DNA of 64,000 nt from Candidatus Woesearchaeota archaeon. Lineage in GTDB: Archaea > Nanobdellota > Nanobdellia > Woesearchaeales > B29-G15. A program made the translations under genes and the position numbers. How positions within the stretch are numbered: position 1 is the stretch's first letter; every line of letters starts with the position of its first letter. The stretch lies in the NCBI GenBank assembly GCA_017610005.1, contig JAFCCU010000005.1, positions 4,205 to 68,204 of the forward strand. The letters run 5' to 3'. This document shows, piece by piece, positions 14,052 to 40,923 of this stretch. Under the pieces are notes generated by a model that was not told the origin of the DNA, searched no databases, and worked only from the letters and a program-made list of their open reading frames with translations.

Positions 14052-15215
14052 ATGTTGCTTTCAACTCAGGATATTGAACGATTATCTCCAGGATATAAGC
14101 GATTTTATTATGGAGAAAGTGAATTGTTAGATGCGCCCATAGATCTTTATCAGAGAGGAAGGCTCCGAGATCTCTATAATCGAACAGATAATCTTGGAAG
14201 ATTGATTGGAACAGATTTAGAAAGTCTAAAAACAAGTAAAAGCAGATATAAAAATATCTTTTTTTGGAGAGGGATTTCTTATTATATGGGGCTAAGATTA
14301 AGCCCATTAGATAAATTGAGTTACTTGGCAAAAGATGAGCGGGAAGTAAAATCTGATTTATTAGAATCCATAATTCAAATAGATGATTTATTAGAAAATG
14401 AAATGGAGGAGACTGGAGATTTGACTTATTCTCTTTTAGATCATCAAAGAAATAATTTCCTGGTTATTTTTAAGTCCTATTTTTCTCAATTATTTAGTGA
14501 TCCTGGGTTAATTGAATATTTCCAACCAATGGTTGAAATGTTAAGTGAGGCAGTTTCAAACTTGTATTACTTTTGTTTATCCAAACCACCTATTTTTAAT
14601 CATCTTAATAATAAATTGTTAAGTGATCTCCTCCCATGGATAAAATTAGATCACTCAAGTTGGTGGAGAGAGTTAGATGATCCATTGAAAATATTATTTT
14701 ATTCGGCTAACGTGATTGAAGAAAGAAGAAAACCCTTTGAAGTAGTTATTAATCCTTTTTCTGGTGCTTTAGAGCTTGGATTTGCATTAAAAACTGTTAG
14801 TGAAATTCTTAATAACCCTGTAGTGAATGATATTGTCTTTTTTGATTATTCGGTTTATGATAGGGGGAAAATAATTGATATTTCTGAATCTGCAGATGAG
14901 ATTCTTTCAGATATAATCCAAGGGAGCTTTCCAAAACCTTTAGCAGATTCAAGTATGTCTAGAATGTGGGGAAAAGAATCATTTATTCTTGATGATAATC
15001 TAACGACGGGGAAAACTCTTTTTGGCATGAAGAGAAGCTTATTAAAATCAGGCATAAGTCCAAGAGTTTTTACTGGGGCAATTGAACTCGGGAGAGAGGA
15101 TAGGGCAGGCAGGTTTAGTGTGGGTGTTCTGGAAAATTTAGATTTCATGCCCATAGGGGATCGCATGAGTGCGGGAAAAAAGGCTAGAAAAATACTGGAG
15201 CCATTTATAAAATGA
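14052..15215 (+). CDS. Orphan protein with a C-terminal phosphoribosyltransferase-like motif (cassette cargo)
   Basis: FILDDNLTTGKTL resembles the type I PRTase PRPP-binding loop; lies between the 77-bp direct repeats. Confidence 0.6.
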   Translation: MLLSTQDIERLSPGYKRFYYGESELLDAPIDLYQRGRLRDLYNRTDNLGRLIGTDLESLKTSKSRYKNIFFWRGISYYMGLRLSPLDKLSYLAKDEREVKSDLLESIIQIDDLLENEMEETGDLTYSLLDHQRNNFLVIFKSYFSQLFSDPGLIEYFQPMVEMLSEAVSNLYYFCLSKPPIFNHLNNKLLSDLLPWIKLDHSSWWRELDDPLKILFYSANVIEERRKPFEVVINPFSGALELGFALKTVSEILNNPVVNDIVFFDYSVYDRGKIIDISESADEILSDIIQGSFPKPLADSSMSRMWGKESFILDDNLTTGKTLFGMKRSLLKSGISPRVFTGAIELGREDRAGRFSVGVLENLDFMPIGDRMSAGKKARKILEPFIK

Positions 15216-15664
15216 TAATGTTTATTAATATTAAGCACTTAAGGAAAATTAGAATGGGATCTCCAATATTCTCTCCTGAGGTAGGTACTTGGGTTAGAAT
15301 CAATACTAGGCCACCCCTAGTTGTAAGCCCTCTGAAATGCTCGTCTCAATATGATGTTGCTAGAGATTTGGTTGATATTGTGATGGATAGGATAATAACA
15401 AGTCATTACTTGAATAATGGTGAAATGAGTGATCCTGATTGGGATTCTACACTTGTGAAAATGGGAGATTTTATTAGTAGGAGATATCAAGGTGATTTAA
15501 GAGAAGATTTAATAGATTATGTTGGTGGCAGAATCTCTGTTTTAGAGGGTTTGATGGTACATTTGGGGCCCAGTGAGAAAGTTGAGCAATTTGCAATAGA
15601 AAATAGAAGAATCCCTTGGGAATGGGTATCCCTAAGTGGCTCTAGAATAAGGCTTTATGAGTAG
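15212..15664 (+). CDS. Hypothetical protein (cassette cargo)
   Basis: 150-aa ORF overlapping the previous stop by 4 nt; its stop codon abuts the direct repeat at 15665. Confidence 0.55.
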   Translation: MIMFINIKHLRKIRMGSPIFSPEVGTWVRINTRPPLVVSPLKCSSQYDVARDLVDIVMDRIITSHYLNNGEMSDPDWDSTLVKMGDFISRRYQGDLREDLIDYVGGRISVLEGLMVHLGPSEKVEQFAIENRRIPWEWVSLSGSRIRLYE

Positions 15665-15944: not shown

Positions 15945-16982
15945 CTATATTAAGTTGTTAATATCGTTGACCATTTCTTTTCTTGGGCCCTCTTCTTGGA
16001 ACTTGCCTAGAATCCAAGGGGATTTTACTCCAGTTATAATTGTCATGACAGTAATCTTCCCAACCATATTCTCATCGATGCGTGCCCCCCAAATGACATT
16101 TGCATCTGGATCAAGTTCTTGAGTTATTTGTTCACCAACTTGAGTAATATCATCAAGAGTCAAGTCTGGCCCCCCTTCAATGTGAATTAGGGCCCCCCTT
16201 GCTCCTTTGTAATCAATTTCAAGCAAGGGATTTTTTAGTGCTAAATCCACTGCTTGTTGTACGTGTTTATCACCTGCGCTAGACCCTACGCCAATGGCAG
16301 CAACTCCTCCATTAGTCATAATGGCTTTAACGTCTGCATAATCAAGATTAACTAAGGAAGGCACTGAGATTGTTTCTACAATTCCTTTAATCATTGTTGC
16401 AATTAATTCATTTGCAATTGCAAATGCTTGTTGCACTGGTAAATTCCCTGCGATTTGCACAAGTCTATTATTATCAACCACAATAACTGTATCGCAGTGT
16501 GCCCTCATTTGTGAGAGCCCAAATTCTGCTTTATCCATTCTAGCTCTTTCTATTGAAAATGGCATTGTAACTGTTCCAATAGTTATTGCTTTCATTTCAG
16601 AAGTTAATTTTCCAATGACTGGAGCAGCACCTGTTCCAGTGCCTCCGCCCATGCCTGCGCATAAAAATACCATATCAACGCCTTGCATTAATTCCCTCAT
16701 TTCATATAAAGATTCTTCTGCAGCACTACTTCCTTGTTTTGGATAGCCACCAGCTCCAAGGCCCTTTGTGACATTTTTTCCAATTAGCAGTTTTTTATCT
16801 GCTTCACTGATATTCAAATGTTGTTGATCAGTGTTACATGCAATAATTTCAGCTCCTTTGATCCCTTTTTTATATAACCAAGAAACCATATTACAACCTG
16901 CTCCACCAATCCCAAGAACTTTAATATTAGCTTGACCTATATCAAGATTTCCAGAATGTTCCTCAACTTCTAAAATAGACAT
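15945..16982 (-). CDS. ftsZ: Cell division protein FtsZ (paralogue A)
   Basis: IKVLGIGGAG, NTD, GMGGGTGTG signature, NLDYAD T7 loop; ATG at 16982 follows a GAGG SD-like site (ORF track starts at 17018). Confidence 0.97.
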   Translation of the reverse strand: MSILEVEEHSGNLDIGQANIKVLGIGGAGCNMVSWLYKKGIKGAEIIACNTDQQHLNISEADKKLLIGKNVTKGLGAGGYPKQGSSAAEESLYEMRELMQGVDMVFLCAGMGGGTGTGAAPVIGKLTSEMKAITIGTVTMPFSIERARMDKAEFGLSQMRAHCDTVIVVDNNRLVQIAGNLPVQQAFAIANELIATMIKGIVETISVPSLVNLDYADVKAIMTNGGVAAIGVGSSAGDKHVQQAVDLALKNPLLEIDYKGARGALIHIEGGPDLTLDDITQVGEQITQELDPDANVIWGARIDENMVGKITVMTIITGVKSPWILGKFQEEGPRKEMVNDINNLI

Positions 16983-17061: not shown

Positions 17062-17117
17062 TCAGTCTGAAGTCTGAAGTCTGAAGTCTGAAGTCTGAAG
17101 TCTAAAGTTTGAAGTGT
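17062..17117 (+). repeat. Heptamer array (8 units) in the ftsZ/trmI divergent promoter region
   Basis: TCAGTCT, GAAGTCT x5, AAAGTTT, GAAGTGT. Confidence 0.95.
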
Positions 17118-17170
17118 GACTGGCTTCAAGGTATCTGGGGAGGGTTTTTTGGAAAGGTTTTTAATAAGGT

Positions 17171-17926
17171 GTGGTTTTTAAATTATTAATGACGAAAATC
17201 AAGAAAGGCGAATGGGTGCTTTTACTATCTAAAGAACATTCTTATCTTCTTAAGGCAGATGGTAAGATGCATACAAGTGATGGTATTGTGGAGTTAAAGG
17301 ATTGTAAAGAATTTGGAACTTATGTAAAAACTCACAAGGATTTTGAATTTGCAGTTGTAAAACCTAATATTAATGATTTATTAAATAAGAAAATGAAGCG
17401 AATGCCCGCTTCAATTCATAAAAAAGATTTGGGGTTTATTATTGGTGTAACCGGGCTTCAGAAAGACTGGAAAGTACTGGAAGCTGGAACTGGGTCTGGG
17501 CATGCAACATTATTTTTTGCTGAGCATTGCACAAAAGTTATTTCTTATGAAGTAAGAGAAGATTTTCATAAGCATGTTAAGGATAATTTAGAGCTTTTAA
17601 ATATAAAAAATGTGGAGCTTAGAAATAAGGATATTAAAGAAGGAATTAAAGAAAAAGACTTTGATTTAATTTTACTTGATATGAAAGGGTCTGAAGAAAT
17701 AATTGAAATAGCAACAAAAGCTCTAAAACCTGGTGGTTTTATAGTTATTTACTCTCCTTATATTGAGCAAAGTAAACTTGCTGTTGAGAAATTAACTGAA
17801 CTTGACTTTAATGGGATAGAAACAAGTGAAACAATTTTGCGTACTTGGGATGTTAGAGATCATACACTGCCAAAGCGAGCCGGCATGATGCACACGGCAT
17901 TTATCACGATTGCCCGGAAGGTTTAG
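17171..17926 (+). CDS. trmI: tRNA (adenine-N1)-methyltransferase, TrmI/Gcd14 family
   Basis: VLEAGTGSG SAM motif, ISYEVREDF, ILLDM, YSPYIEQ, HTAFITIARK. Confidence 0.9.
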   Translation: MVFKLLMTKIKKGEWVLLLSKEHSYLLKADGKMHTSDGIVELKDCKEFGTYVKTHKDFEFAVVKPNINDLLNKKMKRMPASIHKKDLGFIIGVTGLQKDWKVLEAGTGSGHATLFFAEHCTKVISYEVREDFHKHVKDNLELLNIKNVELRNKDIKEGIKEKDFDLILLDMKGSEEIIEIATKALKPGGFIVIYSPYIEQSKLAVEKLTELDFNGIETSETILRTWDVRDHTLPKRAGMMHTAFITIARKV

Positions 17927-18788
17927 CCTTTCTTTTCCTTATTATATATGTTGTAATTGGGTATCCTGCGTCAAGAATAATACCTACTCCCAATAGTATT
18001 GCTAATGCTTTGGTAAGGCCTCGAAAAAACAAGTAATCTCTTTGAGCTTCCACTGCAGTATCATACAATTCATCTGAAACTTTTTGCCTTGGATTTAATC
18101 TTGATGCTTCCCCTACAATCAAAGCAGCAGACTCAAGGGATGCAATTGCTGGTTGAAAGGTTTCAACTGTAACTGGCATTCCATAAACTCTCTTTAAATC
18201 ATTTCCTTTAGGGAGATCACGAGCAATTTTCTCAAGGGCTGGTTTTAATGCCTTTATTCTTTCTAAGATATTTGCATATAAATTTATACTATTTGTAGCG
18301 AGACGTATGGCAACTTTAGCATCGCCGGGGTCAGGAAAATCATAAGAGCTGGAAAGGTATTCTTGGGCATTTCCAATCGAATTGATTGCTCCAGAAATCT
18401 TTTCTACATTTCCTTCTTTTGGGAGCTCTTGAAGTGAAGAAATAACTATATCAAGACTTGCCCTTACATCGGCAAATTGGTGCTCAATAATCCCATTTTC
18501 ATCAGTAACCCTGTAATCATTTTCTTCTGGAAGCCCCACCCTTATAATCAATAGGCTGTTTTTAATCATCTCCACTCTTTTTTCTAAAGAGGGCCCTAGG
18601 GTATGACCCTTATAGCTTAATGATTGTGCAATTCTTGCAGCTTCTTGAAGGCTATCTCTTGCGTTTAAGGGATCTGGGTCATCAGAATTCATTTGAAGAT
18701 GGATAATTGAGGCCAGCAAATTTTCATGTACATCATCATAGATCTGGCTTGGGCGAACCTCTCTACTTTCTACCTTATTTGCTCCCAT
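17904..18788 (-). CDS. Helical orphan protein with a C-terminal TM (cassette cargo; possibly frameshifted at its 5' end)
   Basis: Two DPxxA-containing helical halves and a C-terminal hydrophobic helix; the stop lies inside the trmI 3' end. Confidence 0.6.
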   Translation of the reverse strand: MGANKVESREVRPSQIYDDVHENLLASIIHLQMNSDDPDPLNARDSLQEAARIAQSLSYKGHTLGPSLEKRVEMIKNSLLIIRVGLPEENDYRVTDENGIIEHQFADVRASLDIVISSLQELPKEGNVEKISGAINSIGNAQEYLSSSYDFPDPGDAKVAIRLATNSINLYANILERIKALKPALEKIARDLPKGNDLKRVYGMPVTVETFQPAIASLESAALIVGEASRLNPRQKVSDELYDTAVEAQRDYLFFRGLTKALAILLGVGIILDAGYPITTYIIRKRKAKPSGQS

Positions 18789-18898
18789 ACTGCATCATAT
18801 TTAGTCTTATTAAGGTCATAAAAACCCCACAGGGTTCCAATCACTGCAATAATGACCGGGTAAACAATTGCTCTCACAATAGTTTCTTTTTTCCACAT
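18770..18898 (-). CDS. 42-aa TM peptide, probably the separated N-terminus of 17904-18788
   Basis: MWKKETIVRAIVYPVIIAVIGTLWGFYDLNKTKYDAVWEQIR*, overlapping the next ORF by 19 nt in another frame. Confidence 0.4.
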   Translation of the reverse strand: MWKKETIVRAIVYPVIIAVIGTLWGFYDLNKTKYDAVWEQIR

Positions 18899-18970
18899 GA
18901 AAAGGGAGAAGAGAGTATTATTTAAAAAAGTAGTTATTGTAGTAAGTTCATATTTCTATTAAGGGGTTAT

Positions 18971-19033
18971 ACCTTGCCCAAGCGAGCAGGCATAATGCGC
19001 CTCGCATTTATCACTGTGGCAAGAAAGGTTTAG
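18971..19033 (+). pseudogene. Diverged duplicate of the trmI 3' end (21 codons including the stop)
   Basis: Encodes TLPKRAGIMRLAFITVARKV* versus TLPKRAGMMHTAFITIARKV* at 17864-17926; 48/63 nt identical. Confidence 0.9.
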
Positions 19034-19082
19034 ACGTATACAACAAACCTTTAAAAAGCTCCTTTCATCCCCAATTAATACA

Positions 19083-19547
19083 ATGGATGTAAATTTAGTC
19101 TCAACAATAACTGCAGAGCATCCTGCTTTTGAAGCAACAAAAGATAATTTAGAAGAATTTGTTGTTGGCTTAGGGAAAGCTGTTGAGGGATTTGTCCATA
19201 ATTTTCGTTTAGCGCGGTCGCTTCATGAGCTTGATGATTTAATAAAAGAATATCATGTATCGAGCGCATGGTATAATGGTGACAGATTGTCCATTGAGAT
19301 TGATATAGCATATAAGTCACTAGAAAAAGGATCAATGTATGTAAAATTACGTTTAGGATCTGAAGATACGGGGGCAATAAGTAAGAGGGGGAGATTTACT
19401 ATGGCCCTTATTGATTATTTCAAAGAAAATGGAATGATCCAAAAAACTTGGACTTATGGAGAGGAGAGCTGGTTCAATTTAACTCCCGGAGCACCCGACA
19501 TGTATGGGGACCCTCCAATAAGACCAGATGAAGTAACACCTACATAA
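19083..19547 (+). CDS. Hypothetical orphan protein
   Basis: 154-aa ORF with an upstream TTTAAA promoter-like box. Confidence 0.55.
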   Translation: MDVNLVSTITAEHPAFEATKDNLEEFVVGLGKAVEGFVHNFRLARSLHELDDLIKEYHVSSAWYNGDRLSIEIDIAYKSLEKGSMYVKLRLGSEDTGAISKRGRFTMALIDYFKENGMIQKTWTYGEESWFNLTPGAPDMYGDPPIRPDEVTPT

Positions 19548-19579: not shown

Positions 19580-20632
19580 ATGAAAATAATTAAGAGTAAT
19601 TATAAGCATGGTGAGCTTGTAATTAAAATTGAGAATTTGAATGATTTATGGTATTTGTCACAGGTTTTAGAGCCAAGAGATATTGTTAAGGGTAAAACTG
19701 AAAGGAAAATTAGTATTGGTGGTAAGGAAGAAAAAAGGCAAATAAAACGAGTTTGGATTACTCTTTCTTTAGAAGTTGAAAAAATTGAATTTCATAAGTA
19801 TTCAGATGTTTTAAGAGTTTCAGGAAAAATTACTGAGGGCACAGATGATATACCCCATGGTCAATATCACACAATTAATGTTGAACCAGGAATTATTTTG
19901 ACAATTACAAAAGTTGAATGGCTTGATTATCAAAAAAAATACATTAAAGAGTCTTTAGAAAATGCTCCGGAATTTTTACTTTGTGTGCTTGATCGCGATG
20001 AAGCTTGCTTTGCACTTTTAACGGGGCAAGGATATAGGATTTTGAGTTCTTTTAAGGGAGAAGTTGAAAATAAGCGGGTTAAAGATAAAAAACCAACTCA
20101 CTTCTATGGAGATGTAATAAAATTAATTGAAGATTACAATAAACGGCATAAAGTAAAATCCATAATTATTGCGTCTCCTTCTTTTTGGAAAGAGGATTTA
20201 TTAAAGGAAATTAAAAGTCCAGAATTAAAACAAAAAATTATTCAAGCAACTTGTAATCACACTGGGCAGCAAGGGATTAATGAAGTGTTAAAACGAGATG
20301 AACTACAAACTGCATTAAAAGAAGATAGAATTAGTCATGAAATGGTAATTGTTGAGCAATTATTAAAAGAAATTTCTTTAGATAAAAATGCGGCTTATGG
20401 TATGAAAGAAACAATTAAAGCAACAAATGCTGGGGCGGTATTAACTTTGCTTGTGACAGATGAACTAATAAGAGAAACAAGGCAAAAAGAAACATATGCT
20501 GGCCTTGCAAATATCATGAAAGCAGCACAACATAGCGGTGCCAAAATTGAAATTATTGAATCTGAGAACCCTGGCGGGAAAAAGCTTGATGGTCTTGGAG
20601 GCATTGGCGCAATTCTGAGGTACAAGTTATGA
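19580..20632 (+). CDS. pelA: mRNA surveillance protein Pelota
   Basis: NLNDLWYLSQVL, LRVSGKI, HTINVE, LDGLGGIGAILRY. Confidence 0.96.
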   Translation: MKIIKSNYKHGELVIKIENLNDLWYLSQVLEPRDIVKGKTERKISIGGKEEKRQIKRVWITLSLEVEKIEFHKYSDVLRVSGKITEGTDDIPHGQYHTINVEPGIILTITKVEWLDYQKKYIKESLENAPEFLLCVLDRDEACFALLTGQGYRILSSFKGEVENKRVKDKKPTHFYGDVIKLIEDYNKRHKVKSIIIASPSFWKEDLLKEIKSPELKQKIIQATCNHTGQQGINEVLKRDELQTALKEDRISHEMVIVEQLLKEISLDKNAAYGMKETIKATNAGAVLTLLVTDELIRETRQKETYAGLANIMKAAQHSGAKIEIIESENPGGKKLDGLGGIGAILRYKL

Positions 20633-30477: not shown

Positions 30478-30575
30478 ATTTACTGCAAATCGTTAAGGTG
30501 GAGGGTGAGAGGTATGGAGTTGAAGGCATAGTATTTTTCACTACAGACTCCGAACTGCAAACTCCAGACTGCTAA
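30478..30575 (-). repeat. Heptamer/linker element immediately 3' of tRNA-Ser
   Basis: Minus strand reads GCAGTCT GGAGTTT GCAGTTC GGAGTCT GTAGTGAAAAATACT ... ACCTTAACG. Confidence 0.85.
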
Positions 30576-30658
30576 CGCCGAGGATGGGACTCGAACCCAT
30601 GTGTCCGCGAAGACAGAGAATTAGCAATCCTCCGCAATAGCCACTATGCGACCCCGGC
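30576..30658 (-). tRNA. tRNA-Ser(GCT), long variable arm, CCA not encoded
   Basis: Folds as GCCGGGG/CCTCGGC acceptor stem, GAGGA-TTGCTAA-TTCTC anticodon arm, TTCGAGT T-loop, discriminator G. Confidence 0.96.
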
Positions 30659-30803
30659 ATGAAAATCTAATGTTGTGGGACCTTTTTTATAGTTTTCTGT
30701 TAAGTTTTCTTAAAATTGAAGCTAAAAGGGAGATTGTGGTTTTTTGCGTTAAAAAATATCTTTTGACGTAACTTTTTTATACTTCTTAGTTAAAGATTGA
30801 TAA

Positions 30804-39843: not shown

Positions 39844-40923
39844 ATGGACTTTGTAGTCGAAAACGCAGTTAAAAATGCACAAGAAAATTTTGAAGAGTTA
39901 GATGTAGGGCAAGCCAACATTAAAGTTATTGGTGTTGGCGGTGCTGGTAATAATATGGTTTCTTGGTTATATAAGAAAGGAATCAAGGGAGCGGAAATTA
40001 TTGCATGCAACACTGATCAACAACATTTGAATATCTCTGAAGCTGATAAAAAGTTCTTGCTAGGTAAGGATTGTACCAAGGGACTTGGATGCGGTGGATA
40101 TCCAGACAAAGGCGCTGAAGCAACTAAGGAATCTATCCAAGAAGTAAAAGAATCACTTCGCGGTTCAGATATGGTATTTGTTTGCGCAGGAATGGGTGGA
40201 GGCACTGGAACCGGTGGAGCACCAGTTATTGCAAAACTTTCCAAAGAAAACAATTCAATTGTGATTGGAACAGTTACTATGCCCTTTAAAATTGAAAGAG
40301 CCAGAGTAGATAAAGCAGAGTATGGTTTACAACAATTAAGGCAAGTAGCTGATACTGTTATTGTGATAGATAATAATAGACTTGTGCAAATTGCAGGAAA
40401 CTTGCCCGTGCAGCAGGCTTTTGCAGTAGCAAATGAACTTATTGCAACCATGATTAAAGGCATTGTTGAAACAATTGCAATTCCAAGTTTAGTTAACTTA
40501 GACTTTGCTGATGTTAAGGCAATTATGACAAATGGTGGAGTTGCTGCAATCGGAGTAGGAGCAAGTGACACCAATAACCGAGTTGAAGAGGCAGTTAACA
40601 GTGCATTAAGTAACCCTTTATTGGATATTGACTACAAGGGTGCCTCTGGCGCACTCATTCATGTTGTTGGTGGTCCAGATTTAACCTTGGATGAAATAAG
40701 CCAGATAGGTGAGCTTGTTACAGGTTCACTTGATGAAGATGCAAATGTCATCTGGGGAGCAAGGATTAGAGAAGATATGAAGGGACGTGTTACTGTCATG
40801 ACTATTATGACTGGTGTTAAATCTCCTTGGATCTTAGGGCGAAATCAGACAGAAGAGCGCGTTGTTCAGAGAGTCGAGATGACTGAACTGGATGATGAGC
40901 TAGGCATTGAAGTCTTGAGATAA
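39844..40923 (+). CDS. ftsZ: Cell division protein FtsZ (paralogue B)
   Basis: IKVIGVGGAG, GMGGGTGTG, NLDFAD. Confidence 0.97.
   Translation: MDFVVENAVKNAQENFEELDVGQANIKVIGVGGAGNNMVSWLYKKGIKGAEIIACNTDQQHLNISEADKKFLLGKDCTKGLGCGGYPDKGAEATKESIQEVKESLRGSDMVFVCAGMGGGTGTGGAPVIAKLSKENNSIVIGTVTMPFKIERARVDKAEYGLQQLRQVADTVIVIDNNRLVQIAGNLPVQQAFAVANELIATMIKGIVETIAIPSLVNLDFADVKAIMTNGGVAAIGVGASDTNNRVEEAVNSALSNPLLDIDYKGASGALIHVVGGPDLTLDEISQIGELVTGSLDEDANVIWGARIREDMKGRVTVMTIMTGVKSPWILGRNQTEERVVQRVEMTELDDELGIEVLR

What the first reader, a model, noticed from the sequence alone, without database searches (positions are those of the whole stretch)
17864..19033. Displaced trmI tail that diverged mostly at synonymous sites
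Seen: the copy at 18971-19033 differs from 17864-17926 at 15 of 63 nt. Eight differences are synonymous, 16 of 20 residues are identical, and the stop is kept; the conserved HT became RL in the copy. The cargo ORF uses a stop located within the active trmI tail. Inference: the two tails come from diverged orthologous trmI genes, so the incoming DNA brought its own trmI end from a related organism and displaced the resident one. Simple tandem duplication followed by neutral decay would not enrich for synonymous changes.
Basis: partly seen in the sequence, partly recalled or inferred. Interest (0 to 1): 0.65.

Follow-up and report, generated by a model that had tools for sequence, protein, structure and literature searches.

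The report
Displaced trmI gene end beside inserted orphan gene
A small piece of foreign DNA carrying an unknown membrane-protein gene and its own version of the last ~22 codons of the tRNA methyltransferase gene trmI inserted into the end of that gene in a low-GC DPANN-type archaeon. The old gene end now lies 1.1 kb downstream as a decaying relic. This is a known kind of event, but here the insert is unusually small and has no integrase.

Summary
Window 17864-17926 and 18971-19033 differ at 15 of 63 nt, share 16 of 20 residues and both keep the stop. The repeat really spans 72 nt (17855-17926 and 18962-19033).

The two ends diverged under protein-level selection (pN/pS 0.22). Local duplication followed by decay of one copy fits poorly (P about 0.01).

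Close relatives have trmI next to pelota, with gaps of 39 or 320 nt. Here 1.65 kb lies between them: a compact promoter + 42-aa + 294-aa unit with no homologue in 1.8-5.8 billion proteins, then the displaced end, then a second orphan ORF.

GC3 in trmI jumps from 0.18 to 0.65 at nt 17867, which is the repeat boundary. Unexpectedly, the displaced end is also GC-rich (0.55), so it is not simply the native end.

No integrase, transposase or viral relative was found. The same anatomy occurs at trmI in another archaeon (L077) and at secD in a third (L062).

Best reading: C-terminal displacement by a small unit that carries its own gene end, comparable to icd/e14 and Rhs tip displacement. The vehicle and the enzyme are unknown. 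Interest is moderate.

The parts
15945..16982 (-). ftsZ, the conserved left neighbour, divergent from trmI
   Evidence: Pfam Tubulin and FtsZ_C. The ftsZ(-)/trmI(+) pair is kept in L001, L002, L004 and L005.
17189..17926 (+). trmI, tRNA (adenine-N1)-methyltransferase, intact (a possible alternative GTG start lies at 17171)
   Evidence: Pfam GCD14 scores 61 bits against a cut-off of 26. It aligns full-length to P. abyssi TrmI (3LGA/3MB5, E 1e-40) and T. thermophilus TrmI. There are 471 homologues; the closest are 60% and 58% identical.
17855..17926 (+). Active tail, repeat copy 1: the incoming 3' end now used by trmI. It is identical in protein sequence to the tail of the closest relative, L001.
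   Evidence: Repeat D1. GC3 is 0.65, in the top 0.03% of 16,554 20-codon windows, and codon usage gives p < 5e-5. The GC3 change-point is at 17867, support 17861-17879. The tail-minus-body GC3 gap is the largest among 160 trmI genes.
17916..17942 (+). Hairpin across the trmI stop codon followed by a T-run; terminator-like, with its distal arm in the inserted DNA
   Evidence: GGAAGGTTTAGCCTTTC followed by TTTTCCTTAT; also seen in the fold. This is a consensus match only.
17904..18788 (-). Cargo ORF of 294 aa, an orphan. Predicted all-helical with one C-terminal hydrophobic helix. Its last 6 codons and stop are antisense to the active tail.
   Evidence: ORF list. The only hit is itself in 5.8 billion proteins and in 1.84 billion representatives by phmmer. 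No Pfam, PHROGs, NCBIfam or PADLOC hit. The AlphaFold model is unreliable, pLDDT 41. GC3 is 0.265, host-like.
18770..18898 (-). 42-aa ORF with one hydrophobic helix, overlapping the cargo start by 19 nt; probably the first gene of the cargo transcription unit
   Evidence: ORF list. No significant family hit. Coding status is not shown.
18899..18961 (-). Spacer holding an archaeal TATA-like box (TTTAAATA on the minus strand, + coordinates 18917-18924), about 18 nt upstream of the 42-aa ORF's ATG. It is the presumed promoter of the cargo unit.
   Evidence: Read directly from the sequence. This is an inference; no expression data exist.
18962..19033 (+). Displaced trmI tail, repeat copy 2: a 3' fragment only, with the stop kept and the invariant His-Thr replaced by Arg-Leu
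   Evidence: No trmI similarity upstream of it. GC3 is 0.55, in the top 0.5% of windows, and codon usage gives p = 0.0015.
19083..19547 (+). Second orphan ORF (154 aa), between the displaced tail and pelota. It is absent from relatives and may be an older insertion.
   Evidence: The only hit is itself in 5.8 billion proteins. No family hit. L005/L084 have 39 nt and L002 has 320 nt between trmI and pelota.
19580..20632 (+). pelota (aPelota/Dom34), the conserved right neighbour of trmI in the closest relatives
   Evidence: Pfam eRF1_1, eRF1_2 and eRF1_3. Synteny in L002/L003, L004 and L005/L084.

Best explanation
A roughly 1.1-kb unit recombined inside the last ~24 codons of the resident trmI. 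The unit consisted of a trmI 3' end from another lineage of the same archaeal clade, joined to one compact transcription unit: TATA box, 42-aa ORF and 294-aa orphan ORF, antisense to trmI.

The incoming end now completes the gene. It keeps the invariant His-Thr and supplies the stop and a hairpin/T-run. The end that was in use before was pushed 1107 nt downstream, lost selection and is decaying (HT to RL).

The most likely path is a Campbell-type single crossover of a small circular cassette made of one tail plus one gene. It would be catalysed in trans by a recombinase encoded elsewhere or by host recombination. It has probably happened more than once at this site, which would explain why the displaced end is also not native in composition.

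- **Shown:** the repeat, selection-shaped divergence, a compositional break at the repeat boundary, an insertion relative to relatives, orphan cargo, and no recombinase in or near the insert.
- **Inferred:** which end came in, the circular intermediate, the repeated cycles and the enzyme.

Taken together, all readings in which foreign DNA displaced the gene end have a probability of about 0.85. The cassette version specifically is about 0.45.
For: **Divergence and origin of the two ends**
- The repeat is 72 nt at 75% identity and ends exactly at the stop.
- pN/pS is 0.22, and the duplication-plus-decay simulation gives P about 0.01.
- Both tails carry the clade-specific KRAG..AFIT.ARKV motif.

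**Composition**
- The GC3 change-point at 17867 (0.18 to 0.65, p = 0.004) coincides with the left edge of the repeat.
- A GC-rich tail is not a family trait. This gene has the largest tail-minus-body gap of 160 trmI genes, +0.44 against a next-best 0.26.

**Continuity with the cargo and synteny**
- The cargo's stop and a terminator hairpin straddle the tail/cargo junction.
- trmI and pelota are adjacent in relatives, with gaps of 39 and 320 nt, against 1654 nt here.

**Two further independent cases with the same compact anatomy**
- L077: trmI, then 5 nt, then a 258-aa Bestrophin-like ORF, then about 20 nt, then the displaced tail. 9 of 33 nt differ with 1 residue change; pN/pS 0.055.
- L062: secD, then a 159-aa GNAT gene (antisense, with its own TATA box), then the displaced tail. 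12 of 102 nt differ; pN/pS 0.27.
- In each case the insert is one complete gene with little spare DNA, which fits defined cassettes better than random fragments.

**Evidence that the ends are exchanged in populations**
- Some L077 strains carry a copy-type patch (713-731) in the active tail. Other strains diverge exactly after the trmI stop at 740.
- A precedent exists for excision leaving a chimeric gene end: icd/icdC after e14 loss (PMC13626634).
Against: - No recombinase was found in the 1.1-kb insert or within about 10 kb either side.
- No excised circle or empty-site reads exist; the only run holding this DNA has fragments.
- The cargo has no homologue, so its mobility cannot be shown.
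- No tail-bearing viral contig was found.
- The longest identical block between the tails is 11 nt, which is poor substrate for plain homologous recombination.
- The cargo has host-like GC3 (0.265) while both tails are GC-rich, so tail and cargo do not obviously share one history.
- Displaced tails are rare: 2 of 164 trmI loci and 3 of 2053 genes. Without the window itself, trmI is not significantly enriched.
- Three cases are too few to establish a cassette class.
Confidence: 0.45

Rival explanations
1. Homology-facilitated illegitimate recombination. A linear chromosomal fragment from a related archaeon, in which the cargo lay just downstream of trmI, paired with the resident trmI 3' region as a one-sided anchor. 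Its far end joined illegitimately just upstream of the resident tail, which was therefore kept downstream.
For: - It needs no integrase, which matches.
- It explains orthologous, selection-shaped divergence and the break at about 17867 as the crossover point.
- The same mechanism is proposed for sequential displacement of T6SS effector ends and Rhs tips (PMC5361080).
- The trmI-pelota gap varies among relatives: 39, 320 and 1633 nt.
Against: - The crossover (17861-17879) and the left edge of the displaced copy (equivalent to 17855) coincide, which this model does not predict.
- All three inserts are complete single genes with minimal spare DNA.
- The displaced, supposedly resident, tail is GC-rich.
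Confidence: 0.25
2. A remnant of a larger integrase-encoding provirus or plasmid that integrated into the trmI 3' end with a replacement end in its attP, exactly as e14 and phage 21 do in E. coli icd. Later internal deletions removed the integrase and most genes.
For: - The architecture matches icd/icdC: an active gene end inside the element and a 3'-fragment pseudogene at the far side, differing mainly at synonymous sites (PMC13626634).
- Orphan genes are typical of archaeal mobile elements.
- ORF154 is also an orphan.
Against: - No integrase lies in the insert or within about 10 kb either side.
- No PHROGs hit.
- No viral contig carries a trmI tail.
- No integrase family appears among the 25 commonest families in the genes directly downstream of trmI in 123 loci.
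- Three independent cases would all have had to be trimmed to one intact gene flush with both repeats.
Confidence: 0.15
3. Local origin: a tandem or target-site duplication of the trmI end made when the cargo inserted. The active copy then evolved under selection and the other decayed neutrally.
For: - It is the simplest model.
- The displaced copy has lost the invariant His-Thr.
- Selection on one copy does by itself enrich synonymous differences.
Against: - Simulation gives P about 0.01 for the window and about 0.001 for L077.
- The tails are as far from each other (75%) as from other families' tails (72-80%).
- The substitutions show no AT bias: 8 GC-to-AT against 6 AT-to-GC, counted from the sequences printed. 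This is despite a 34.5% GC genome.
- It does not explain the GC3 break inside trmI.
- 63-72 nt is far longer than transposase target duplications, and no transposase or terminal inverted repeats are present.
Confidence: 0.05
4. The whole block, tail-cargo-tail (perhaps with ORF154), was imported at once from a relative that already had the displaced-tail structure. It replaced the native end by double crossover, so neither tail is native.
For: Both tails are GC3-rich (0.65 and 0.55) and carry the clade motif. Relatives L001 and L002 have tails with GC3 0.52.
Against: The cargo and ORF154 have host-like GC3 of 0.27. No donor-like locus was found among 163 loci. No compositional break is visible at a right-hand crossover, since the pelota 5' end is AT-rich.
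Confidence: 0.08

Closest known systems
Prophage e14 / phage 21 integration into the 3' end of E. coli icd (icd plus the icdC pseudogene)
   Same: The insert carries a substitute 3' end that keeps the gene intact. The former end survives as a 3'-only fragment on the far side. The two ends differ mostly at synonymous sites, and excision gives chimeric ends (PMC13626634; older literature recalled from memory).
   Different: e14 is about 15 kb and encodes its own integrase/excisionase. Here the insert is 1.04 kb with one small transcription unit of orphan genes and no recombinase. The host is a DPANN-type archaeon, and the displaced end is itself compositionally foreign.
C-terminal displacement in Rhs/CDI toxin genes and sequential displacement of T6SS effector-immunity modules
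   Same: Incoming DNA anchors on the conserved part of a gene and brings a new 3' end plus a downstream gene. The old 3' end is left as an orphan downstream. Homology-facilitated illegitimate recombination has been proposed as the mechanism (PMC5361080).
   Different: In those systems the new tips encode different toxins with cognate immunity genes, and the arrays are under conflict-driven selection. Here the two ends are orthologous and functionally equivalent parts of a housekeeping tRNA methyltransferase. The cargo shows no toxin, immunity or defence signature.
Genomic islands at tRNA/tmRNA genes with displaced 3' gene fragments
   Same: Integration into the 3' end of a conserved gene, a direct repeat made of that gene end, and the possibility of stacking successive inserts (from general knowledge).
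   Different: The target here is a protein-coding gene. The repeats are 24% diverged rather than near-identical. There is no integrase and the size is about 1 kb.
Integron gene cassettes
   Same: One compact gene plus a short recombination site, possibly moving as a small non-replicating circle and inserted by an enzyme encoded elsewhere (a functional analogy only).
   Different: No IntI or attI was found nearby. The active tail has no attC-like folded site, z = -0.05. The cargo has its own promoter-like TATA box, and the presumed 'site' is a coding gene end.

Membership tests
TrmI (tRNA m1A57/58 methyltransferase), identity of the target gene | GCD14/TrmI catalytic-domain match above the curated threshold, and full-length similarity to solved TrmI structures | tested here: met
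   PF08704 scores 61 bits against a cut-off of 26. 3LGA/3MB5 give E 1e-40 over residues 4-245, and 2PWY/5C0O TrmI also match.
TrmI (tRNA m1A57/58 methyltransferase), identity of the target gene | Conserved C-terminal motif HT[GA][FW][LIM]T[FI][AG]R[KR] present in the expressed gene | tested here: met
   The active tail reads HTAFITIARK. H241 and T242 are invariant in 26 sequences. The displaced copy reads RLAFITVARK.
Integrase-borne element in the 3' end of a protein gene (icd/e14 type) | Direct repeat made of the gene's 3' end; the proximal copy completes the gene and the distal copy is a 3'-only fragment | tested here: met
Integrase-borne element in the 3' end of a protein gene (icd/e14 type) | The two ends differ mainly at synonymous sites, i.e. 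they diverged while both were functional | tested here: met
   pN/pS 0.22; the duplication-plus-decay simulation gives P about 0.01.
Integrase-borne element in the 3' end of a protein gene (icd/e14 type) | The element encodes a tyrosine or serine recombinase next to one att site | tested here: not met
   The insert holds only the 42-aa and 294-aa ORFs, with no family hit. None of the 16 flanking ORFs scanned between 12.6 and 26.5 kb is a recombinase. ORFs further away in the window were not scanned.
Integrase-borne element in the 3' end of a protein gene (icd/e14 type) | Element or attP form seen elsewhere (free, in other hosts, or as excision products) | tested here: not met
   The cargo has no homologue. 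No viral contig matches. No joints were seen in the single low-coverage run, which is weak evidence.
C-terminal displacement (Rhs/CDI/T6SS effector-immunity arrays) | A conserved upstream anchor, a new 3' end plus an adjacent gene inserted, and the old 3' end retained downstream | tested here: met
C-terminal displacement (Rhs/CDI/T6SS effector-immunity arrays) | The alternative ends encode distinct toxin domains paired with immunity genes | tested here: not met
   The ends are orthologous TrmI tails, 16 of 20 residues identical. No toxin, immunity or defence hit.
C-terminal displacement (Rhs/CDI/T6SS effector-immunity arrays) | Arrays of several orphan ends from successive events | tested here: inconclusive
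   There is only one displaced tail. However, a second orphan ORF lies beyond it, and the displaced tail is itself non-native in composition.
Integron gene cassette | attC: an imperfect palindrome that folds as a single strand, at the cassette boundary | tested here: not met
   Active tail z = -0.05 (+ strand) and +1.18 (- strand). The copy gives z = -1.04 and -2.35, marginal at best. No Rfam hit.
Integron gene cassette | An IntI integrase with attI and Pc next to the array | tested here: not met
   No recombinase among the ORFs scanned within about 10 kb either side. The rest of the window and genome was not scanned.
Transposon / insertion sequence with target-site duplication | A short, initially identical target duplication, terminal inverted repeats and a transposase | tested here: not met
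   The repeat is 72 nt and 25% diverged with a selection signature. The only flanking inverted repeat is a 16-nt, 81% match of the kind abundant by chance. No transposase was found.

The most novel reading that the evidence does not exclude
DPANN-type archaea may host a class of integrase-less, single-gene cassettes that use the conserved last 12-35 codons of housekeeping genes (trmI, secD) as their recombination site. Each cassette would carry a working substitute end, insert without harming the gene, and leave displaced or chimeric ends behind. This would be a route for gaining orphan genes in reduced genomes, and a reason for a gene's last codons to have a different history from the rest of the gene.
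Probability: 0.2. Interest if true: 0.75.

Novelty: new variant of a known kind. Interest (0 to 1): 0.45.

Why it matters
It shows concretely how a lineage-specific orphan gene entered a streamlined archaeal genome without damaging an essential-type tRNA-modification gene.

The last ~20 codons of a housekeeping gene can be xenologous to the rest of it. That matters for gene-tree inference and for detecting recombination.

If the three cases found here (two at trmI, one at secD) reflect a common mechanism, displaced gene ends would be a cheap, sequence-only marker. They could be used to map recent gene gain in uncultured archaea and to look for the recombination machinery behind it.

Tried and rejected
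- **Chance similarity:** rejected (E 2e-8).
- **Longer trmI pseudogene behind the copy:** rejected; no similarity upstream, and an in-frame stop is present.
- **Third tail copy, or a native tail remnant after ORF154:** none found.
- **GC-rich tail as a property of trmI genes:** rejected (160 genes).
- **GC-rich tail caused by conserved residues preferring GC codons:** rejected by eye; other invariant motifs of the same gene, such as AGTGSG and YSPYIEQ, use AT-ending codons.
- **Functional RNA in the tails:** no Rfam family. No significant fold for the active tail. The minus strand of the copy gives a marginal z = -2.35, left unexplained.
- **Identifying the donor by nucleotide similarity:** failed; synonymous sites are saturated against all 159 relatives.
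- **Cargo function:** no homologue, no family, and an AlphaFold model at pLDDT 41 that was not worth a fold search.
- **Relation of the cargo or ORF154 to the two genes filling the same gap in L004:** none.
- **Viral or proviral origin:** no trmI-tail-bearing viral contigs.
- **Integrases as frequent trmI neighbours:** not seen; DUF371 is the usual neighbour.
- **Excision or empty-site reads for the window:** the only run holds 5% of the words, as short fragments. No run was found for L062.
- **Other displaced gene ends in this window:** none.
- **A shared junction motif in the three cases:** only a 7-mer (AAATTCC) shared by L077 and L062, compatible with chance; judged by eye.
Full report
**1. 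Setting**

The window is low-GC archaeal DNA (34.5% GC). The genes around the finding are:
- ftsZ (15945-16982, minus strand);
- trmI (17189-17926, plus strand; Pfam GCD14, full-length match to the solved TrmI of P. abyssi and T. thermophilus);
- a 294-aa ORF (17904-18788, minus) preceded by a 42-aa ORF (18770-18898, minus);
- a 154-aa ORF (19083-19547, plus);
- pelota (19580-20632, plus).

The closest TrmI proteins in 5.8 billion sequences are only 60% and 58% identical. They come from uncultured archaea. More distant hits are labelled Woese-, Pace- and Aenigmatarchaeota, so this is a DPANN-type archaeon with no close sequenced relative.

**2.

- 17864-17926 and 18971-19033 differ at 15 of 63 nt. 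They translate to TLPKRAGMMHTAFITIARKV* and TLPKRAGIMRLAFITVARKV*, and both end in TAG.
- Seven codons carry only synonymous changes, 8 nt in all.
- The His-Thr pair that became Arg-Leu is invariant in 26 aligned TrmI sequences.
- The repeat finder extends the pair to 72 nt (17855-17926 and 18962-19033), 75% identical and 1107 nt apart.
- Similarity ends at the stop codon and is absent upstream of 18962, where an in-frame stop lies 15 codons before the copy. The copy is therefore a bare 3' fragment, not part of a longer pseudogene.
- tblastn gives E = 2e-8 for the copy, and the window holds no third copy.
- The 294-aa ORF does end at a TGA (17904-17906) that is antisense to the active tail.

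**3. There is an insertion**

In the nearest relatives trmI is flanked by ftsZ on one side and pelota on the other.

| Locus | Gap between trmI and pelota |
|---|---|
| L005 / L084 | 39 nt |
| L002 / L003 | 320 nt |
| L004 | 1633 nt, filled by two unrelated genes |
| This window | 1654 nt |

So this intergenic spot is variable, and the window's content is lineage-specific.
- The 294-aa protein has no homologue at all. It matches only itself in the word-indexed search of 5.8 billion proteins and in an exhaustive phmmer scan of 1.84 billion representatives.
- The 154-aa protein is equally orphan.
- Neither hits Pfam, PHROGs, NCBIfam or PADLOC.
- A single-sequence AlphaFold model of the cargo is unreliable (pLDDT 41). 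It says only that the protein is helical. The hydrophobic stretch near the C-terminus is read from the translated sequence.

The cargo unit looks self-contained. A TATA-like box (TTTAAATA on the minus strand, + coordinates 18917-18924) lies about 18 nt before the 42-aa ORF's ATG. This is read from the sequence, and expression is not shown.

**4. The two ends diverged under selection, not by decay of a duplicate**

- Nei-Gojobori counts give pS 0.59, pN 0.13 and pN/pS 0.22.
- I simulated the rival model: identical copies at time zero, the active one accepting only synonymous changes and the other neutral. At 15 nt differences it gives a mean of 8 residue changes, and 4 or fewer in about 1% of runs, with or without AT-biased mutation.
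The conclusion still stands.
- The substitutions are not AT-biased: 8 GC-to-AT against 6 AT-to-GC (counted). That is unexpected for neutral decay in a 34.5% GC genome.
- The two tails are as far from each other (45/60 nt) as each is from the tails of L001 and L002 (43-48/60). Yet both carry KRAG..AFIT.ARKV, a motif restricted to this small clade.

They are orthologous ends from different lineages of one clade.

**5. Composition marks the active end as foreign to its own gene**

- GC3 of the trmI body is 0.21, and that of the last 20 codons is 0.65.
- Given the window's codon usage, the probability is below 5e-5. Only 0.03% of 16,554 20-codon windows in the window's genes are that GC-rich.
- A likelihood change-point sits at nt 17867 (support 17861-17879; 0.18 against 0.65; permutation p = 0.004). 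That is the left edge of the repeat.
- This is not a TrmI habit. Among 160 trmI genes collected from genome and metagenome contigs, the window has by far the largest tail-minus-body gap, +0.44 against a next-best 0.26. The 91 low-GC3 genes have a mean tail GC3 of 0.28.
- The cargo's last six codons and stop, and a hairpin/T-run terminator-like site (17916-17942), both span the junction between the active tail and the insert.

Together these make the active tail the incoming one.

**6. The complication**

The displaced copy is also GC3-rich: 0.55, in the top 0.5% of windows, codon-usage p = 0.0015. The cargo (0.265) and ORF154 (0.273) look like host genes, which run 0.17-0.30.

Any single-event model predicts one AT-rich native tail, and none is present. 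Phylogenetic placement cannot say which tail is native either. Outside the two damaged codons, both are equally similar to 159 relatives.

The simplest reconciliation is that the site has been used more than once, so that the end displaced by the latest event had itself been left by an earlier one. There are two routes to that:
- an integration/excision cycle, as e14 excision leaves icd-icdC chimeras (PMC13626634);
- serial displacement, with ORF154 as the older cargo and the truly native tail lost.

GC-biased conversion between the repeats, or import of the whole block, are alternatives. This point remains unexplained.

**7. The same anatomy occurs elsewhere**

I scanned 163 trmI loci for a second tail. 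That found one more case, in L077, an uncultured groundwater archaeon whose TrmI is 41% identical.
- Its layout is trmI (18-740), 5 nt, a 258-aa Bestrophin-like membrane protein (745-1521, same strand), about 20 nt, then HTGFMTFGRKV* against the active HTGFMTFGRKI*.
- 9 of 33 nt differ with one residue change. pN/pS is 0.055, and the duplication-plus-decay model gives P about 0.001.
- This case was found by protein similarity, which biases it towards conserved copies.

I then scanned the C-terminal 24 residues of all 2053 ORFs of at least 120 aa in the 2.16 Mb collected. That found a third case at another gene, in L062.
- Its layout is a SecD-like gene, then a 159-aa GNAT acetyltransferase on the opposite strand with its own TATA box, then a displaced 102-nt SecD tail.
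- 12 nt differ, and pN/pS is 0.27.

In all three cases the insert is one complete gene with almost no spare DNA. Homology ends at the stop codon, and no recombinase was seen on L077's 6.3-kb contig or among the three ORFs scanned at L062. No other displaced end exists in this window.

Frequencies are low: 2 of 164 trmI loci and 3 of 2053 genes. Without the window itself, trmI is not significantly enriched.

**8. Population data for L077**

Contigs from public runs, laid on L077, show three things:
- strains whose active tail carries a patch (713-731) of the displaced-copy variants;
- strains in another study whose sequence matches trmI up to its stop at 740 and then continues with unrelated DNA;
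- a strain lacking the next downstream ORF (an 825-nt skip).

The gene end is therefore a real breakpoint, and the two tails exchange sequence in nature. No such data exist for the window. One run holds 5% of its words as short fragments.

**9. Mechanism**

What is established is C-terminal displacement by DNA that brought an orthologous end. How that DNA entered is inferred.

I favour a small tail-plus-gene cassette inserting by a Campbell-type crossover within the tail (0.45). The reasons are:
- the compositional break and the edge of the displaced copy coincide;
- the inserts are compact complete genes;
- repeated cycles would explain two non-native tails.

One-sided homologous anchoring of a linear fragment, i.e. 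homology-facilitated illegitimate recombination (PMC5361080), needs no special enzyme and is the main rival (0.25).

A decayed integrase-bearing element of the icd/e14 kind (0.15) is weakened by several negative results:
- no integrase in the insert or among the 16 flanking ORFs scanned;
- no PHROGs hit;
- no viral contig with a trmI tail;
- no integrase family among the 25 commonest in the genes directly downstream of trmI.

Import of the whole tail-cargo-tail block in one step stays possible (0.08). Local duplication is unlikely (0.05).

**10. Comparison and verdict**

The thing works like the icd/e14 replacement-end arrangement and like Rhs/T6SS tip displacement. It is not a member of either.
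- The integrase test is not met.
- The ends are functionally equivalent housekeeping ends, not alternative toxins.
- Integron-cassette and transposon memberships fail on attC, IntI, target-site duplication and transposase.

It is best filed as a new variant of a known kind, of moderate interest. The label 'resident' for the displaced copy is not supported.

Noticed in passing
L077:18-1577 (CAZZNM010000051.1): A second, independent displaced trmI tail in a distant archaeon. The layout is trmI, a 258-aa Bestrophin-like ORF, then a 36-nt tail copy that differs almost only at synonymous sites. Downstream lie further non-conserved genes (an unknown 236-aa ORF, an ASCH-domain gene and a small GIY-YIG gene) before Hel308. 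In relative L058, Hel308 directly follows trmI.
   Followed up: yes
L062:6385-8663 (JBDRKL010000013.1): The same anatomy at a different gene: a SecD-like gene, an antisense 159-aa GNAT gene with its own TATA box, then a displaced 102-nt SecD tail (88% identical, pN/pS 0.27).
   Followed up: yes
L077:690-760 and 1715-2541, runs X3, X5 and X6: Strain variation at the gene end. Some strains carry a copy-type patch in the active tail. In X6, contigs diverge exactly after the trmI stop (740) into unrelated sequence. The X5 strain lacks the 825-nt stretch holding the next ORF.
   Followed up: partly
window 18962-19052: In the displaced copy, four substitutions within 5 nt (CAC ACG to CGC CTC) destroy His-Thr and create AGGC/GCCT pairing. 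CTTGCC...GGCAAG arms flank it. The minus strand folds better than shuffles (z = -2.35), while the active tail does not (z about 0). This could be chance or a secondary use of the relic.
   Followed up: partly
window 17064-17119: Eight tandem copies of the heptamer AGTCTGA (91% matches) in the divergent ftsZ-trmI intergenic region, just upstream of trmI.
   Followed up: no
window 14052-15664 and L001:2111-3903: Two adjacent genes without Pfam hits (387 aa and 150 aa) lie upstream of ftsZ here. The 150-aa protein is 34% identical (E 4e-24) to the 134-aa gene that directly follows trmI in L001, so this gene has moved relative to trmI between relatives. L001's adjacent 412-aa gene resembles the 387-aa ORF only by eye; this was not tested.
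   Followed up: partly
window 39844-40923: A second FtsZ paralogue. Its N- and C-terminal peptides match those of the ftsZ at 15945-16982.
   Followed up: no
L055:10637-11393: A 19-residue fragment matching the C-terminus of a 152-aa ORF lies about 240 nt upstream of that ORF, just before a two-gene unit that looks by eye like a vapBC (PIN toxin-antitoxin) pair. No domain scan was run. It may be another displaced gene end, in the opposite arrangement.
   Followed up: no
window 30575-30659: The only tRNA gene in 64 kb is tRNA-Ser(GCT), on the minus strand. No other Rfam family reaches its threshold in the window.
   Followed up: no
L004:10777-12361: In the Woesearchaeota relative, the same trmI-pelota gap holds two other genes (a 231-aa HAD-like hydrolase and a 298-aa unknown), with no tail copy. 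The gap is a recurrent site of gene gain even where no displaced end is visible.
   Followed up: partly
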